This document shows, one piece after another, positions 18,742 to 26,144 of a stretch of DNA of 26,414 nucleotides; position 1 is the stretch's first letter; each line of letters starts with the position of its first letter. The notes beneath the pieces were generated by a model, which was given only the letters and a program-made list of their open reading frames with translations, searched no databases and was not told the DNA's origin. Both the position numbers and the translations under genes were made by a program. The stretch comes from a virus (Duplodnaviria > Heunggongvirae > Uroviricota > Caudoviricetes), in the IMG/VR virus record IMGVR_UViG_2537561991_000013, positions 1 to 26,414 of that record, one strand, 5' to 3'.

Positions 18742-19434
18742 TTATGCAAAACGGTGTAGTGTCATAGGCCAACTGACAATTACTTTTCCGTCAATGTGAA
18801 GTTGTTCGAAGTCTTCCGGTTCGATAGCCCAATCCTTGTAAGCTGGGTTGTCAGATATCACCGTTAGAGTATCTTTGATTTTTTGAAGTCTTTTGATGTG
18901 CGATGTTCCAGAGTATGTAAAGGCGTATATACCATCACCATTAAATGTGCGAACTGATACATCTACAAATACCAAGTCTTCAGGGTCTATTGTGCCTTTC
19001 ATACTGTCGCCGTGGGCGTTTATTGCTTTGATTGCTGATGCTGGTCTGCCGCCAAAAACTCTTGATGCGTATCCTGGTTCTATCGCTATAGATCTGACAA
19101 TATCAGGAAAATCAGAGTTATAACTACCAGGTCCGCAACTATATCTGATGTCTAAAACATCCACGACATACGAATCAGTAACCCAATCTTCAGAAATGTT
19201 ACGTATTTGGTGTGAGTCTGCAGAGGTCACGATTTCCATTGGGCCAACACCCGATGCGAGCCATTCCGGGTTAACGCCCAAAACTTTTGCTATTTCGACT
19301 GTTTTTCTGGAACCGTTGGCTTTGTTAAGTAGTTGATTAACACTGGACTGAGCCATACCCACTTCTTTGGCCAGCCTACCTTGCGTAAATTTTGCGTTGC
19401 GCATAGCTAAATCAAGTCGTTCTGAAAATGTCAT
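18742..19434 (-). CDS. CI-like prophage repressor (N-terminal XRE HTH, C-terminal S24 LexA-like peptidase domain)
   Basis: 230-aa ORF; N-terminal HTH (FTQGRLAKEVGMAQSSVNQLL), C-terminal GDSM serine motif and downstream lysine; divergent from a Cro-like gene. Confidence 0.8.
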   Translation of the reverse strand: MTFSERLDLAMRNAKFTQGRLAKEVGMAQSSVNQLLNKANGSRKTVEIAKVLGVNPEWLASGVGPMEIVTSADSHQIRNISEDWVTDSYVVDVLDIRYSCGPGSYNSDFPDIVRSIAIEPGYASRVFGGRPASAIKAINAHGDSMKGTIDPEDLVFVDVSVRTFNGDGIYAFTYSGTSHIKRLQKIKDTLTVISDNPAYKDWAIEPEDFEQLHIDGKVIVSWPMTLHRFA

Positions 19435-19466
19435 TGCGATTTTCCTCCCCTCTCTATCTTGGCTAG

Positions 19467-19486
19467 TTTATCGGCTTTCCGATAAA
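19467..19486. promoter_or_regulatory. operator-like palindrome TTTATCGG-CTTT-CCGATAAA in the cI/cro intergenic region
   Basis: Perfect 8-bp inverted repeat with a 4-bp spacer between the divergent repressor and Cro-like genes; related CGATAAA half-sites recur at 18640..18690. Confidence 0.5.
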
Positions 19487-19553
19487 TATTCTATGTTTAA
19501 CGTTGAATATCGCTTTTCCTGTTGTTATTATGCGTTCAATAGGAGATGCGATT

Positions 19554-19841
19554 ATGAAACATAAAGCCATAGAGAAAGCTATTGAGATTCTTGGAAGTCA
19601 GCAAGCCTTAGCCAAGCGATGCGGAAAGGCCCAGTCAACAGTCTGCGATTGGTTGAACTGCAAGAACAAGATTTCACCAGAATTTGTGCCGTTATTGGTT
19701 GCAGCTGTCGACGGAAAGATCCAAGCGTATGAATTTCGGCCAGACCTACCAGAGCTTTTTCCACATCCAAGCTTAGCGCGCACGGGGGAGGTGAAGGGCT
19801 TGTATGTCCCAGAATTACGTTCAGACAGAGATGCCATCTAG
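19554..19841 (+). CDS. Cro/YdaS-like small HTH regulator
   Basis: ATG at 19554 with AGGAG RBS at 8-nt spacing (ORF track starts at 19503); MKHKAIEKAIEILGSQQALAKRCGKAQSTVCDWLN... is an HTH; divergent from cI. Confidence 0.6.
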   Translation: MKHKAIEKAIEILGSQQALAKRCGKAQSTVCDWLNCKNKISPEFVPLLVAAVDGKIQAYEFRPDLPELFPHPSLARTGEVKGLYVPELRSDRDAI

Positions 19842-20112
19842 GTACTGCCAGGCAGACGAAGAGTGGATTCAGCAGCAGTTACAGGGGCTGCCTCCGTCAC
19901 TGAGACGGAAGGTTGCCCTGAAATATGCGGAGGTATACGAAATCACTTTTGACGCTGAGCCTGTTTCATTCCGCAAGGAGAACAGAGCAAGGCACGAAGC
20001 AAACACAAGGCTCCGCCTGTTTGTAAGAAATCAGGGCAGAGCTTTACAGGGGTATACAGCCGAACCTCCCCTGGCTGGATCGCAATCGCGCTCCTCACTG
20101 TTTCGGGTTTAA
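19804..20112 (+). CDS. hypothetical protein in the cII position; possibly a remnant
   Basis: 102-aa ORF overlapping the Cro-like gene; no motif assigned; followed by ~780 bp with no credible ORF. Confidence 0.3.
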   Translation: MSQNYVQTEMPSRYCQADEEWIQQQLQGLPPSLRRKVALKYAEVYEITFDAEPVSFRKENRARHEANTRLRLFVRNQGRALQGYTAEPPLAGSQSRSSLFRV

Positions 20113-20891
20113 AGGTACCCGAACAGAAGCAGGCTTAAAGGTGCCTGTTCAGGTTGGCAACCAACTGACCCAACTCCTCATGTGTACTAGGGAAGTAGTA
20201 CGTTTTTATGGGGAAGAGGGTAAGGGGGGTAAGGGGGGATTGGGTGTTGGGGCAGGAATAGGGTCTTTTCCAACAGGAGAGATCCATTGGTTAAGTAGAT
20301 CACTGTCTTAAGGGCGCAATTTAAAAAAACGCCCGTATCAGCAAGGTAGTACAAAGCGCTCAGGCGCTGAGAAACGAAAAGGGTTCTTCCTGGAAGAGTG
20401 ATTGAAGAGGTGTTCAGAGGTAAATGCACTGAATGTTATTCACGAACATATGAAGTGAATGCCACGCATGAAGAATTCACCGTTGAGTGTGTGATGAATA
20501 CTGATAAATGCCGAATGGTATCCGCTGAATTACAGCCAGTGTGTTGAGCGACCTTATTATCCATGCGCGGTATTGTCGCCGTATTCCTGCATTAACAGAG
20601 ACCGCAGCCCGACAGGGAGACTCCTCTGCGAGAGTGTGCGGGGATAATCAAAAACGATACACACCGGGGTTTACCGCGTAAACGGAGCGCGGCGTTGTCC
20701 CCTCATGGTCGCTGGTCCGGTGCGATGGTGGAAGAAACCGGACGATGTGTTACCTCGCAAACTCTGTTATGTCATGTGTCTGATTTGTGATTTAAGTCGG
20801 ATAATTGTCATTGCCATTAAGCAGAGGATTGATGACCGACAGGGCTGCATTGTTAGAATAAGACTTATTCTTATCTATGCCGGGAATAAAA

Positions 20892-21218
20892 ATGAAAAGA
20901 AATCTTCCGTTAATTATTTTGTTGTCTTCTTTGGTTATGGGCTGTACGCAACATAAAACAGATATGCCTCGACAGTTGGTTAAGGCATTACCACAATATC
21001 CGGCCTATGCCGCGGCAAATTATATAAAGGGACGGGTTGATGTGAAGTTTGATATTGGTGCTGATGGTACTGTCACCCGAATTGAGTTTATCCGTTCAGA
21101 GCCGCACCATCTGTTTGATGAGCAGGTTGTAAAGGCGATGGCAAAATGGCGATTTGAGAAGGACAAGCCGCGTAAAGGCGTGAAGAAAACATTTATCTTT
21201 AGTCCTTCAGCACCCTGA
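20892..21218 (+). CDS. lipoprotein with a TonB C-terminal-like domain
   Basis: Start at ATG 20892 (MKRNLPLIILLSSLVMGC...) giving a lipoprotein signal and lipobox, Thr at +2; mature part PQYPAYAAANYIKGRVDVKFDIGADGTVTRIEFIRSEP...AMAKWRF parallels TonB CTD ([38 protein letters not shown]...AMRRWRY). Confidence 0.55.
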   Translation: MKRNLPLIILLSSLVMGCTQHKTDMPRQLVKALPQYPAYAAANYIKGRVDVKFDIGADGTVTRIEFIRSEPHHLFDEQVVKAMAKWRFEKDKPRKGVKKTFIFSPSAP

Positions 21219-21689
21219 TTATTTTATCAGAAGTTAATTATCACTCTGTTGCTATTCAGTACATCCCTGCAGGGTAAAGTCTTGTTTCGCCGGATATGAA
21301 GATGAAATATTGTTAGAAGACAGTAGCTACCGGTTCCTGTAACCGAACGTTCATTTCTCGTTATTTTTCATGCTGGCCGGGCGCAGGTGCTTTGCATCTG
21401 TTGCCAGCCTTCTCCTGCAGGCTTCAATAACCCATGCCGAAAAATTACCCGATCCCTTACGTTCAAGGGCAATATGGATTTGATTAATCATCTGGTTTGG
21501 GAAGCTTTATTTTTTGATGACATTGTGTTTTTCCGTGTTCAGTGCTGCTGATTTGTATTGTCTTAAGATGTCTTTACGTTAAGTTGACACAGATCAATTA
21601 ATGCATGACTTGGACAAAATTGATTATTTGTCGTGGTTTTATGGTGTACGTGGGATGTGTGATGGTATTTATATAAATGATAATTATTA

Positions 21690-21917
21690 TCATTTGTTGG
21701 GTCCTTTCCGGCGATCCGGCAGGCTACGGGGCGGCGACCTCGCGGGTTTTCGCTATTTATGAAAATTTTCCGGTTTAAGGCGTTTCCGTTCTTCTTCGTC
21801 GTAACTTAATGTTTTTATTTAAAATACCCCCTGAAAAGAAAGGAAACGACAGGTGCTGAAAACGAACTTTTGGGCCTTTGTCGTTTCCTTTCTCTGTTTT
21901 TGGCCGTGGAATGAACA
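21690..21917 (+). other. cos region (cosN cohesive-end site at 21728..21739, GGGCGGCGACCT, with flanking cosQ/cosB)
   Basis: Sequence across 21695..21917 matches the lambda right-end/left-end junction as I recall it (...GGTCCTTTCCGGCGATCC...ACG | GGGCGGCGACCTCGCGGGTTTTCGCTATTTATGAAAATTTTCCGG...) with a few substitutions, immediately upstream of nu1. Confidence 0.8.
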
Positions 21918-22437
21918 ATGGAAGTCAACAAAAAGCAGCTGGCTGACATTTTCGGTGCGAGTATCCGTACCATTCAGAACTGGCAGGAACAGGGAATGCC
22001 CGTTCTGCGAGGCGGTGGCAAGGGTAATGAGGTGCTTTATGACTCTGCCGCCGTCATAAAATGGTATGCCGAAAGGGATGCTGAAATTGAGAACGAAAAG
22101 CTGCGCCGGGAGGTTGAAGAACTGCGGCAGGCCAGCGAGGCAGATCTCCAGCCAGGAACTATTGAGTACGAACGCCATCGACTTACGCGTGCGCAGGCCG
22201 ACGCACAGGAACTGAAGAATGCCAGAGACTCCGCTGAAGTGGTGGAAACCGCATTCTGTACTTTCGTGTTGTCGCGGATCGCAGGTGAAATTGCCAGTAT
22301 TCTCGACGGGCTCCCCCTGTCGGTGCAGCGGCGTTTTCCGGAACTGGAAAACCGACATGTTGATTTCCTGAAACGGGATATCATCAAAGCCATGAACAAA
22401 GCAGCCGCGCTGGATGAACTGATACCGGGGTTGCTGA

Positions 22438-22463
<26 letters not shown>
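21918..22463 (+). CDS. nu1: terminase small subunit (lambda Nu1)
   Basis: 181-aa ORF MEVNKKQLADIFGASIRTIQNWQEQGMPVLRGGGKGNEVLYD... recognised as lambda gpNu1; position right after cos. Confidence 0.9.

Positions 22464-26144
<3,681 letters not shown>

What the first reader, a model, noticed from the sequence alone, without database searches (positions are those of the whole stretch)
20892..21218. TonB C-terminal-domain lipoprotein encoded just upstream of cos
The mature protein is essentially a TonB CTD (PQYP...VDVKFDI..DG.V...........AMAKWRF) tethered by a lipid anchor, with Thr at +2 suggesting outer-membrane sorting. A free TonB-CTD mimic in the periplasm could compete for TonB boxes of TonB-dependent receptors, which would block TonB-dependent phages and colicins, or alter iron uptake. 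Its upstream region holds a near-palindrome AGAATAAG-a-CTTATTCT (20862..20878) and a GATAAT-containing motif (20805..20823) loosely resembling Fur-box hexamers.
Basis: partly seen in the sequence, partly recalled or inferred. Interest (0 to 1): 0.6.

Follow-up and report, generated by a model that had tools for sequence, protein, structure and literature searches.

The report
Prophage lipoprotein copying TonB's receptor-binding end
A prophage gene encodes a small, lipid-anchored copy of the end of TonB that docks onto outer-membrane transporters. It is most likely an unpowered decoy that dampens TonB-dependent entry of bacterial toxins and phages; the gene is common and already annotated, but I found no test of its function.

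Summary
The ORF at 20892-21218 (+) is real. It encodes a 108-aa prelipoprotein (lipobox LVMG|C18, Thr at +2). The mature 91 residues are a short disordered tether plus a complete TonB C-terminal domain: Pfam TonB_C E=2e-15, 40% identical to E. coli TonB 153-231, and the AlphaFold model superposes on TonB bound to BtuB/FhuA at 1.0-1.4 A. It lacks TonB's membrane anchor and proline-rich rod, so it cannot transduce energy.

The gene is already annotated as 'TonB family protein'. It occurs in 1616 of 5426 complete E. coli genomes, including phage 21, Stx1a phages and the Nissle and E2348/69 prophages. Wherever I inspected the prophage context, it lies between the lysis and packaging genes. Relatives occur in Klebsiella, Sodalis and Rahnella prophages, on plasmids and on chromosomes. 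dN/dS is 0.13. I found no functional study.

Best reading (about 0.45): an outer-membrane-tethered, unenergised TonB decoy that captures Ton boxes and dampens TonB-dependent import. Indirect support:
- Soluble TonB-CTD proteins in Serratia sit in a conserved module with a Ton-box-bearing colicin and its immunity gene.
- Two homologues carry 17/19 Fur boxes at -30 and -36.

Here the palindrome (really 20855-20871) is only a 13/19 Fur match and is absent from the phage-21 allele. The PHROG 'spanin' label is wrong.

The parts
20892..21218 (+). Gene for the 108-aa prelipoprotein with a TonB C-terminal domain (stop codon included)
   Evidence: ORF and translation. Same CDS annotated 'TonB family protein' in RefSeq E. 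coli prophages. dN/dS 0.13 against the phage-21 allele.
20892..20945 (+). Lipoprotein signal peptide (residues 1-17) and lipobox Cys18 (LVMG|C), followed by Thr at +2
   Evidence: PROSITE-type lipobox match. Cys and a non-Asp +2 residue conserved in all 17 short lipoprotein relatives inspected. Only hydrophobic segment in the protein.
20946..20990 (+). Short tether (mature residues 19-33) between the lipid anchor and the folded domain
   Evidence: pLDDT below 50 for residues 14-23 and 28-32 in the AF2 model. Most variable part of the family alignment.
20991..21203 (+). TonB_C domain (residues 34-104): helix 38-42, strands 47-55 and 60-70, helix 76-84, strand 94-103 (equivalent to TonB beta3, the Ton-box docking strand)
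   Evidence: Pfam PF03544 E=2.4e-15 and TIGR01352 57 bits. 32/79 identical to E. coli TonB 153-231, ungapped. AF2 model matches 2gsk_B and 2grx_C at rmsd 1.0-1.4 A, TM 0.83-0.88.
20832..20859 (+). Weak sigma-70 promoter-like site: ATGACC, 16 nt, TG-n-TAGAAT
   Evidence: Consensus scan, 9/12 with an extended -10, but the number of such sites in the region is no more than chance. A -10-like hexamer ends at -33 here, -31 in Sodalis and -31 in the P0177 homologue.
20855..20875 (.). Perfect palindrome AGAATAAG-a-CTTATTCT (20855-20871) overlapping a 13/19 match to the Fur-box consensus (20857-20875); possible weak Fur operator over the -10/+1 region
   Evidence: 13/19; 50 of 1000 shuffles reach it. 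Same relative position as the 17/19 Fur boxes of two homologues. Right arm absent in the phage-21 allele.
20882..20885 (+). Shine-Dalgarno-like GGGA, 6 nt before the ATG
   Evidence: Read directly from the sequence. Phage 21's curated record marks an RBS at the equivalent place.

Best explanation
The gene is a lysogenic-conversion 'moron' carried between the lysis and packaging modules of lambdoid prophages.

Shown from sequence and model: its product is exported, and the sequence predicts lipidation on Cys18. [quoted passage not shown] What hangs from the lipid is a tether of about 13-15 residues plus a complete TonB C-terminal domain. There is no membrane anchor, no ExbB/ExbD-interacting segment and no proline-rich rod.

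Inferred: the tethered domain pairs its exposed beta3 strand with the Ton box of TonB-dependent transporters, and/or with the Ton box of incoming group-B colicins and similar cargo as it emerges under the outer membrane. Because the protein is not coupled to the proton-motive force, the contact is unproductive and competes with real TonB. The outcome would be reduced TonB-dependent import, meaning tolerance to TonB-dependent colicins, microcins and phages at some cost to siderophore and B12 uptake.

Inferred timing: in intact phages the gene lies in the late-gene orientation, so the late transcript should read it. In at least some family members it also has its own Fur-repressed promoter, so it would be made together with its iron-regulated targets. 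For this copy, Fur control is only weakly indicated.
For: - Domain identity and fold. The best structural matches are TonB in complex with BtuB and FhuA.
- Retention of TonB residues (by ungapped alignment): Y163/P164 (Y36/P37), F180 (F53), G186 (G59), F202 (F75), W213 (W86), F230 (F103) and the beta3 strand. Numbering of the TonB positions is from my knowledge of the E. coli sequence.
- Ton-box recognition is beta-augmentation on beta3 and depends more on secondary structure than on side chains (PMC11658791).
- The position equivalent to TonB Q160 is Leu. Q160L is the classical functional suppressor allele (PMC11658791).
- Missing energy-coupling parts: scores are 50-74 bits against TonB equivalog cut-offs of 265-448, and there is no second hydrophobic segment.
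- Precedent for inhibition: over-expressed periplasmic TonB domain inhibits TonB-dependent iron import (Howard 2001, via PMC9841981).
- Precedent for the topology: phage lipoproteins Llp and Cor act from the inner leaflet of the outer membrane on the periplasmic face of FhuA, and acylation favours complex formation (bioRxiv 10.64898/2026.03.26.714494).
- The protein is under selection and is not a tonB scrap. dN/dS is 0.13 with near-saturated synonymous sites. The family forms a clade separate from enterobacterial TonB CTDs.
- Same slot after the lysis genes in E. coli, Klebsiella, Rahnella and Sodalis prophages with different packaging modules.
- Association with TonB-dependent toxins: in Serratia a secreted, non-lipidated TonB_C protein forms a three-gene module with a colicin-E1-type immunity gene and a pore-forming colicin. 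The colicin's invariant N-terminal DSMTVTG resembles a Ton box. The module recurs on a chromosome, on a plasmid-like contig and on a conjugative plasmid.
- Fur boxes of 17/19 at -30 (Sodalis prophage) and -36 (P0177). Each is unique in its locus and reached by 0 of 1000 shuffles. Weaker matches at the same place: 13/19 here, 13/19 in P0065 and 12/19 in Klebsiella.
Against: - No experiment on this protein or family was found. Binding to any Ton box is inferred, not shown.
- The residues equivalent to TonB R158, Q160 and R166 are K, L and Y, and they vary within the family. The salt bridge TonB R166 makes with FhuA (from memory of the 2GRX paper) cannot be the same.
- The gene is in 30% of complete E. 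coli genomes, including Nissle 1917. From general knowledge, Nissle relies on TonB-dependent siderophore uptake. So either expression is low or conditional, or the block is partial or selective.
- Transporters greatly outnumber TonB, so saturating them needs a lot of decoy.
- De-repressing a general TonB blocker during iron starvation looks self-defeating.
- Promoter-like sites upstream are no more frequent than chance, and the palindrome is not conserved in the phage-21 allele.
- Some outer-membrane lipoproteins are surface-exposed. If this one is, it cannot reach Ton boxes.
- The Serratia proteins are a separate clade without a lipid anchor, so their context is an analogy, not homologous evidence.
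Confidence: 0.45

Rival explanations
1. Same inhibitory outcome, different target. The tethered domain binds the host's own TonB C-terminus or the periplasmic domain of ExbD and holds or blocks the energy transducer, rather than occupying transporter Ton boxes.
For: TonB is far scarcer than its transporters, and they compete for it (PMC9841981), so titrating TonB is stoichiometrically cheaper. The aromatic residues implicated in TonB-TonB contacts (F202, W213, F230 equivalents) are conserved. TonB CTD fragments crystallise as dimers (1u07 and 1ihr among the hits).
Against: A paper titled 'The TonB Dimeric Crystal Structures Do Not Exist In Vivo' appears in the search results (PMC3005593; only the title and the start of the abstract were seen). 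The model is closest to the receptor-bound monomeric form. The protein ends 4 residues short of the position matching TonB's C-terminus, so it lacks the C-terminal strand. From memory, that strand is used in the 1U07 dimer.
Confidence: 0.15
2. Not a blocker but an iron-limitation accessory. Either a Fur-regulated outer-membrane lipoprotein that modulates or prioritises which transporters get access to limiting TonB, or one that ties the outer membrane to peptidoglycan, benefiting the host under iron stress.
For: Near-consensus Fur boxes in two homologues. Family members also sit on chromosomes and plasmids outside prophages, which suggests a host-beneficial function. Phage 21 carries the gene together with sitABCD and bor. 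Nissle carries it next to iss. A general blocker switched on during iron starvation would be costly.
Against: No positive role is known for an unenergised TonB CTD. Peptidoglycan binding by the TonB CTD is only a literature suggestion that I recall, not tested here. The Serratia colicin linkage fits protection better than nutrition.
Confidence: 0.15
3. A late lytic-cycle function. The gene is made only from the phage late transcript, to shut TonB-dependent transporters during virion production. This would exclude superinfecting TonB-dependent phages or stop progeny being lost on debris, like T5 Llp.
For: Same strand as, and directly downstream of, the lysis cassette in every intact phage examined. 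No above-chance promoter in the E. coli alleles. Llp is a precedent.
Against: Phage 21's central tail fibre is annotated as lambda-J-like, and no cor gene is annotated in the tail region inspected, so self-exclusion through a TonB-dependent receptor is not indicated. The gene is intact in this window's prophage, which has lost Q, the late promoter and the lysis genes. Homologues have their own Fur-box promoter and terminator or are not in phages at all.
Confidence: 0.12
4. A non-functional fragment of a captured tonB gene, as older annotations imply ('Partial tonB-like membrane protein', 'TonB fragment').
For: Those labels are in GenBank records.
Against: dN/dS is 0.13 across alleles whose synonymous sites are near saturation. 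A dedicated lipoprotein signal has been acquired and conserved. The clade is distinct from enterobacterial TonB CTDs. The gene is present in 1616 genomes, with 1612 covering at least 80% of it.
Confidence: 0.03
5. A spanin (lysis) component, as the PHROG family label 'Rz-like spanin' says.
For: phrog_1267 matches end to end (E=3e-42) and carries that label. The protein is a lipoprotein encoded next to lysis genes.
Against: The E. coli and Rahnella carriers checked have their own Rz with an embedded Rz1 o-spanin; none was detected in the Sodalis gene scanned. The protein has no C-terminal transmembrane segment, so it is not a u-spanin, and it is a folded TonB_C domain rather than a proline-rich o-spanin. 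It is retained in a prophage without lysis genes and on plasmids and chromosomes.
Confidence: 0.01

Closest known systems
C-terminal domain of E. coli TonB (residues ~153-239; PDB 1U07, 2GSK with BtuB, 2GRX with FhuA)
   Same: Same Pfam domain and fold. 32/79 residues identical without gaps. The YP motif, F180, G186, F202, W213, F230 equivalents and the beta3 docking strand are kept. The model superposes at 1.0-1.4 A.
   Different: No N-terminal membrane anchor and no proline-rich spacer, so no ExbB/ExbD coupling. Anchored by lipid to the outer rather than the inner membrane (predicted). Ends 4 residues earlier. Q160, R166 and Y215 equivalents are L, Y and F. Forms a clade apart from enterobacterial TonBs.
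Artificially expressed periplasmic TonB fragments (Howard, Herrmann, Stratilo and Braun 2001, J Bacteriol 183:5885)
   Same: An unenergised TonB periplasmic domain placed in the periplasm. It is reported to inhibit TonB-dependent iron import (as summarised in PMC9841981). This is the laboratory version of the proposed natural decoy.
   Different: Those fragments were engineered, soluble and over-produced. This one is natural, lipid-tethered, diverged to 40% identity, and untested. The original paper was not available to read.
Phage superinfection-exclusion lipoproteins Llp (T5) and Cor (phi80, HK022, N15, mEp167)
   Same: [quoted passage not shown] They act on the periplasmic face of a TonB-dependent transporter and block phages, colicin M and ferrichrome uptake.
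   Different: Unrelated fold and sequence: no Cor or Llp family appeared among the PHROG or Pfam hits. Llp and Cor are specific for FhuA and remodel its plug and loops. A TonB CTD would be expected to address Ton boxes in general.
Bor / Iss lipoproteins of lambda, phage 21 and ExPEC prophages
   Same: An outer-membrane lipoprotein moron in the same lysis-to-cos slot. Phage 21 and the Nissle prophage carry bor/iss and the TonB-CTD gene side by side.
   Different: Different protein family. bor/iss is on the opposite strand. It is linked to serum resistance, not to TonB.
Serratia stand-alone TonB_C proteins linked to colicin genes (P0183, P0184; WP_165366317)
   Same: About 119 aa, consisting of just a signal peptide and a TonB_C domain. 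Encoded on mobile DNA. The context points to TonB-dependent toxin traffic.
   Different: Ordinary Sec signal, no lipobox. Separate clade, 34-42% identity. Sits in a colicin-immunity module, not a prophage.

Membership tests
Pfam TonB_C (PF03544) / TIGR01352 tonB_Cterm domain | Profile score above the curated cut-off | tested here: met
   57.2 bits against 24.6 (Pfam) and 57.1 against 27.1 (TIGR01352), covering residues 34-105.
Pfam TonB_C (PF03544) / TIGR01352 tonB_Cterm domain | TonB CTD fold: short helix, two strands, a helix, and a third strand forming a three-stranded sheet | tested here: met
   AF2 model with domain pLDDT 83-90. Top PDB matches are 2gsk_B, 2grx_C and 1u07_A, with TM (normalised to target length) 0.78-0.88 and rmsd 1.0-1.5 A.
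TonB energy transducer proper (NCBIfam PRK10819 equivalogs) | Full-length match above the equivalog cut-off | tested here: not met
   50-74 bits against cut-offs of 265-448. Only the last ~80 profile positions match.
TonB energy transducer proper (NCBIfam PRK10819 equivalogs) | N-terminal inner-membrane anchor that couples to ExbB/ExbD, plus a proline-rich periplasm-spanning spacer | tested here: not met
   The only hydrophobic segment is the cleavable lipoprotein signal. Eight residues separate Cys18 from the start of the TonB-homologous stretch (Pro26), and 15 separate it from the Pfam domain. There is no Pro-rich region.
Bacterial lipoproteins (signal peptidase II substrates) | Lipobox [LVI][ASTVI][GAS]C at the end of an n-h signal peptide, conserved in relatives | tested here: met
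   IILLSSLVMGC fits the PROSITE PS51257-type pattern. The Cys is conserved in 17 of 17 short lipoprotein relatives.
Bacterial lipoproteins (signal peptidase II substrates) | Actual acylation, and outer-membrane (Lol) sorting | not testable with these tools
   Only the +2 rule can be applied. The +2 residue is Thr here and T/S/A in relatives, never Asp.
Llp/Cor superinfection-exclusion lipoproteins | Homology to the Llp/Cor family | tested here: not met
   No Cor or Llp family among the PHROG or Pfam hits. The fold is TonB CTD. The resemblance is functional and topological only.
Spanins (o-spanin Rz1 type or unimolecular spanin) | o-spanin: a short proline-rich lipoprotein paired with or embedded in Rz. 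u-spanin: a lipoprotein signal plus a C-terminal transmembrane segment. | tested here: not met
   No second hydrophobic segment: the maximum Kyte-Doolittle value after residue 20 is 0.53. The protein is a folded TonB_C domain. The E. coli and Rahnella carriers checked have their own embedded Rz1.
Phage morons (accessory genes inserted between conserved modules) | Presence or absence between the same conserved neighbours in related phages; atypical base composition | tested here: met
   Present between the lysis and terminase genes in phages with lambda-type or HK97/HNH-type packaging modules, and absent from a related prophage (L003). Gene GC is 43% against 56% for the adjacent packaging genes.
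Phage morons (accessory genes inserted between conserved modules) | Own promoter and terminator | tested here: inconclusive
   In the window there is one weak promoter-like site and no terminator call, no better than shuffles. The Sodalis homologue has a promoter-like site, a Fur box and a strong terminator.
Fur regulon | Fur box (GATAATGATAATCATTATC) overlapping the promoter | tested here: inconclusive
   Window: 13/19 at 20857-20875, reached by 50 of 1000 shuffles. Phage-21 allele: 10/19. Homologues: 17/19 (Sodalis, -30) and 17/19 (P0177, -36), each reached by 0 of 1000 shuffles. Binding itself is not testable here.

The most novel reading that the evidence does not exclude
Stand-alone TonB C-terminal domains are a natural, mobile class of 'translocation immunity'. 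An outer-membrane-tethered form is carried by prophages and plasmids and is, in part, Fur-tuned to appear together with iron-regulated receptors. A soluble form is built into Serratia colicin operons. Both would act as unenergised decoys that catch Ton boxes and protect the carrier from TonB-dependent bacteriocins and phages. That mechanism of lysogenic conversion and bacteriocin self-protection did not turn up in any of my literature searches.
Probability: 0.35. Interest if true: 0.75.

Novelty: new variant of a known kind. Interest (0 to 1): 0.58.

Why it matters
TonB-dependent transporters are the main doors for siderophores, vitamin B12, group-B colicins, siderophore-microcins, several phages and 'Trojan-horse' antibiotics.

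If about 30% of complete E. coli genomes carry a natural TonB decoy, the gene would be a hidden variable in several areas:
- colicin and microcin warfare in the gut;
- phage host range;
- iron acquisition;
- susceptibility to siderophore-conjugated drugs.
The carriers include probiotic Nissle, EPEC E2348/69, Stx1a phages and the classical phage 21.

It would also give TonB researchers a naturally evolved, membrane-tethered competitor of the TonB/Ton-box contact. The experiment is cheap: one plasmid plus standard phage, colicin and uptake assays.

If the gene has no such effect, the finding is only a correctly annotated domain protein of unknown function.

Tried and rejected
- **Spanin label.** phrog_1267 is labelled 'Rz-like spanin'. 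Rejected on anatomy, and because the carriers checked have their own Rz/Rz1.
- **Palindrome as a conserved operator.** An alignment of upstream regions shows it is kept only among near-identical copies. Its right arm is deleted in phage 21.
It scores 11/19, which is background level.
- **Promoter and terminator scans in four loci.** None exceeded shuffled expectation, except the Sodalis terminator count.
- **PADLOC defence models.** No hit.
- **Rfam on 19800-22000.** No hit.
- **Foldseek against viral predicted structures (BFVD).** No significant match.
- **Scan of one-genome-per-species contigs.** Only a 418-nt contig labelled Modestobacter, 70% identical to the query over residues 1-67, probably contamination.
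- **Eight literature searches for a described function.** None was found.
- **Howard 2001 (PMC99666).** Not held, so it is cited second-hand.
- **Complex prediction with Ton-box peptides.** Could not be attempted because the structure tool takes single window or database proteins only.
- **'Recent capture of the host tonB 3' end'.** Rejected because the family is a separate clade with saturated synonymous divergence between its own alleles.
Full report
**1. What is in the sequence**

The interval 20892-21218 (+) is an intact ORF of 108 codons plus stop. RefSeq annotates the same 327-nt CDS as 'TonB family protein' in other E. coli strains. An in-frame ATG at 20877 has no ribosome-binding site, whereas 20892 is preceded by GGGA at a 6-nt spacing.

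The N-terminus MKRNLPLIILLSSLVMG|C fits the lipoprotein lipobox pattern, with Cys18 followed by Thr. It is the only hydrophobic stretch in the protein. The mature product is 91 residues, 10.4 kDa, pI 9.8.

- The perfect palindrome AGAATAAG-a-CTTATTCT is at 20855-20871.
- GATAAT is at 20800-20805.
- cosQ is at 21699-21705 and cosN at 21729-21740, about 0.5 kb downstream. A minus-strand DUF3950/YlcI-type gene (21351-21491) lies in between, followed by lambda-type Nu1 (21918-22463) and A (22438-24363).

**2. Identity of the protein**

Residues 34-105 are a TonB C-terminal domain. Pfam TonB_C scores 57.2 bits (cut-off 24.6) and TIGR01352 scores 57.1 bits (cut-off 27.1). phmmer against PDB sequences gives E~1e-16 to the E. 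coli and Salmonella TonB CTDs. The ungapped alignment with E. coli TonB 153-231 has 32/79 identities.

An AlphaFold2 model has mean pLDDT 74, with 83-90 across the domain and below 50 for the signal and tether. It has the expected helix-strand-strand-helix-strand order. Its best PDB matches are TonB bound to BtuB (2gsk_B, rmsd 1.0 A) and to FhuA (2grx_C, rmsd 1.4 A).

The protein fails every full-length TonB equivalog model (50-74 bits against cut-offs of 265-448). It has no membrane anchor and no proline-rich rod. It is therefore a TonB_C-domain protein but not a TonB, and it cannot be coupled to ExbB/ExbD.

**3. Where else it occurs**

The gene is common.
- blastn finds it in 1616 of 5426 complete E. 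coli genomes. About 415 carry this allele (at least 95% nt identity) and about 1200 carry a ~73% allele. The second group includes Nissle 1917 and ATCC 25922.
- The window allele is also in EPEC E2348/69, Stx1a-converting phages, Lys8385Vzw and JLK-2012.
- The second allele is in the classical lambdoid phage 21. Its curated record calls the gene 'TonB C-terminal domain protein', CPT_21_73. It is also in ev017 and Perceval.

In every intact phage examined, the gene lies after the holin-endolysin-Rz/Rz1 cassette and before the terminase genes, on the late-gene strand. This holds for phages with lambda-type cos/Nu1/A packaging and for those with HNH/HK97-type packaging modules. A related prophage (L003) lacks it at that position. 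Its GC content is 43%, against 56% for the neighbouring packaging genes. This is the pattern of a moron.

An exhaustive HMMER search and a profile search show a wider family of 107-133-aa lipoproteins that consist of a lipobox plus TonB_C:
- Klebsiella (prophage and IncF plasmids), Sodalis and Rahnella copies sit in the same prophage slot.
- Other members are on chromosomes or plasmids.

In a neighbour-joining tree the mini-lipoproteins separate from the enterobacterial TonB CTD clade, which has 98% bootstrap support. Between the two E. coli alleles, synonymous sites are nearly saturated (pS 0.65) while dN/dS is 0.13. The protein is therefore old, distinct from host tonB, and under purifying selection. 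It is not a gene fragment.

**4. The window's own context**

Upstream of the gene the window carries a cI-like repressor (18742-19434, minus strand) and a Cro/YdaS-like gene (19503-19841). Sequence to the left of ~20402 matches prophage immunity regions, and sequence to the right matches the region upstream of TonB-family genes in other prophages. No complete genome in the collection has this junction.

This prophage therefore appears to have lost its replication, Q/late-promoter and lysis genes while keeping an intact TonB-CTD gene.

**5. How it probably works**

*Shown.* The protein has a lipoprotein signal with an outer-membrane-type +2 residue, conserved across the family. It has a tether of about 13-15 disordered residues and a complete TonB CTD. 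That domain keeps the YP motif, the core aromatic residues (F180, F202, W213, F230 equivalents) and the beta3 strand, residues 94-103.

*Established knowledge.*
- The Ton box of FhuA pairs with TonB beta3 by beta-augmentation, and Ton-box function depends more on secondary structure than on side chains (PMC11658791).
- TonB Q160L is a functional suppressor allele. The phage protein has Leu at that position.
- Over-produced periplasmic TonB domain inhibits TonB-dependent iron import (Howard 2001, via PMC9841981).
- Phage lipoproteins Llp and Cor act from the inner leaflet of the outer membrane on the periplasmic face of FhuA, and acylation favours complex formation.

*Inferred.* The lipid-tethered domain sits just under the outer membrane. 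There it engages Ton boxes of transporters and/or of incoming group-B colicins without being able to pull. This competes with real TonB and reduces TonB-dependent import.

**6. Two new pieces of indirect evidence**

*A colicin-linked counterpart in Serratia.* Serratia has a 119-aa secreted TonB_C protein with an ordinary Sec signal and no lipobox. It forms a three-gene module with a colicin-E1-type immunity gene and a convergent pore-forming colicin.
- The module recurs in three different settings: a chromosome, a plasmid-like contig with KfrA and toxin-antitoxin genes, and a conjugative S. proteamaculans plasmid.
- All three colicins carry an invariant DDGDSMTVTGD at residues 15-25, which resembles the Ton box of group-B colicins. 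The comparison with colicin B's DTMVV is from memory.
- Elsewhere the TonB_C gene persists at the chromosomal site without the colicin, as orphan immunity genes do.

This fits a free TonB CTD protecting against TonB-dependent toxin entry. However, these proteins form a separate clade, so it is an analogy rather than homologous evidence.

*Fur boxes in the family.* I scored the 150 nt upstream of family members against the 19-bp Fur consensus:

| Family member | Best match | Position relative to ATG | Shuffles (of 1000) reaching it |
|---|---|---|---|
| Sodalis prophage gene | 17/19 (GATAATGATTCTCATTAAC) | -30 | 0 |
| P0177 (chromosomal) | 17/19 (TATAATGATAATCGTTATC) | -36 | 0 |
| This window (palindrome region) | 13/19 | -35 | 50 |
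| P0065 (plasmid) | 13/19 | -30 | 36 |
| Klebsiella | 12/19 | -37 | 164 |
| Rahnella | 11/19 | -27 | 522 |
| Phage-21 allele | 10/19 | -78 | 904 |
| P0180 | 10/19 | -92 | 863 |

The two 17/19 sites are each the only such site in their locus. The Sodalis site overlaps a -10-like TATCAT, and the gene is followed by a strong terminator. In the phage-21 allele the right arm of the palindrome is deleted.

So part of the family looks Fur-repressed, like TonB and its transporters. For this copy the evidence is weak.

**7. Arguments against the decoy reading, and rivals**

No experiment on this family turned up in eight literature searches. The specific objections are:
- The equivalents of TonB R158, Q160 and R166 are not conserved.
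- The gene is carried by strains, such as Nissle, that depend on TonB-dependent uptake (general knowledge). Any block must therefore be conditional, partial or selective.
- Transporters outnumber TonB.
- A blocker induced by iron starvation seems costly.

The rivals are:
- Titration of TonB or ExbD rather than Ton boxes.
- A non-inhibitory iron-stress or envelope role. Phage 21 carries sitABCD, which from general knowledge is a TonB-independent metal transporter. That could equally be read as compensation.
- A purely late-lytic exclusion role.

The 'gene fragment' and 'spanin' readings are effectively excluded.

**8. Comparison with known systems, and novelty**

The protein is a member of the TonB_C domain family and fails membership of TonB proper. 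It resembles Llp and Cor in topology and presumed target class but is unrelated to them. It shares the genomic slot with Bor/Iss. Its closest functional precedent is the engineered periplasmic TonB fragment.

The gene's existence and domain are already in public annotation. What is not described in anything I could search is the following:
- the family as a whole (a lipid-anchored, stand-alone TonB CTD on mobile elements);
- its Fur boxes;
- the colicin-linked soluble counterpart;
- any function.

I therefore rate it a new variant of a known kind. Interest is moderate to good because the hypothesis is specific, cheap to test and concerns a gene present in about 30% of complete E. coli genomes.

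Noticed in passing
window 21675-21695 (core 21678-21692): A perfect 10+10 palindrome, AAATGATAAT-t-ATTATCATTT. Its core TGATAATTATTATCA is an exact match to the Fur 7-1-7 consensus TGATAATnATTATCA. It lies 7 nt upstream of cosQ (21699-21705). None of 100 shuffles gives a match, and 19-mers here score 15/19 to the Fur box. Phage 21 has a half-degenerate version (GTGATAATTATTCTCG) at the same place. From memory, lambda has TGATAATCATTATCA there. I do not know whether it is a Fur site, part of cos, or something else.
   Followed up: partly
window ~20402/20403 (context 18742-20891): The prophage looks like a deletion derivative. The immunity region (cI-like repressor, Cro/YdaS-like gene, a 102-aa ORF) is joined directly to the sequence that normally lies upstream of the TonB-family gene. 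Replication, nin, Q, late-promoter and lysis genes are missing. No complete E. coli genome in the collection shows this junction.
   Followed up: partly
L090:7001-9510, L092:5001-7447, L102:4001-6498 (Serratia): A conserved three-gene module: a secreted stand-alone TonB_C protein (119 aa, no lipobox), then a colicin-E1-family immunity protein, then a convergent pore-forming colicin with an invariant N-terminal Ton-box-like DSMTVTG. It is found on a chromosome, a plasmid-like contig and a conjugative plasmid. In L094 and L095 the TonB_C gene remains without the colicin.
   Followed up: partly
L091:6942-7368 (Sodalis prophage) and L100:350-385 (P0177 locus): Near-consensus Fur boxes (17/19) 30-36 nt upstream of two distant TonB-CTD lipoprotein genes. 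The Sodalis copy also has a promoter-like site and a strong intrinsic terminator, so it looks like a self-contained iron-regulated moron.
   Followed up: yes
L097:8968-11501 and L085:3227-4327 (phage 21); L098:2354-6327 (Nissle prophage): Phage 21 carries sitBCD (the sit Fe/Mn ABC transporter) as a moron, plus bor and the TonB-CTD gene near cos. The Nissle prophage has an ompC-like porin gene, iss and the TonB-family gene around its lysis cassette. Several envelope and metal-related morons thus travel together.
   Followed up: no
window 21019-21046 (minus strand), equivalent L085:4128-4155: A strong promoter-like site on the antisense strand inside the gene: TTCACA-16-TATAAT, 11/12. It is at the same codon positions (N-Y-I-K-G) in the phage-21 allele (TTAACC-16-TATAAT with TG). 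It may simply reflect the conserved coding sequence.
   Followed up: no
PHROG family phrog_1267: This PHROG is the TonB-CTD mini-lipoprotein family (end-to-end match, E=3e-42), yet it is labelled 'Rz-like spanin' in the lysis category. That is almost certainly an annotation error, and it will propagate to phage genome annotations.
   Followed up: yes
window 21351-21491 (minus strand): A 46-aa DUF3950 (YlcI/YnfO-type) gene lies between the TonB-CTD gene and cos, convergent with it. The same pairing is seen in most E. coli carriers, and its function is unknown.
   Followed up: no
L004 (NZ_SJEX01000172.1, 418 nt, labelled Modestobacter excelsi): The only hit in the one-genome-per-species collection is a 418-nt contig in an actinobacterial assembly that encodes the N-terminal 67 residues of this family at 70% identity to the query. 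It is probably enterobacterial contamination of that assembly.
   Followed up: no
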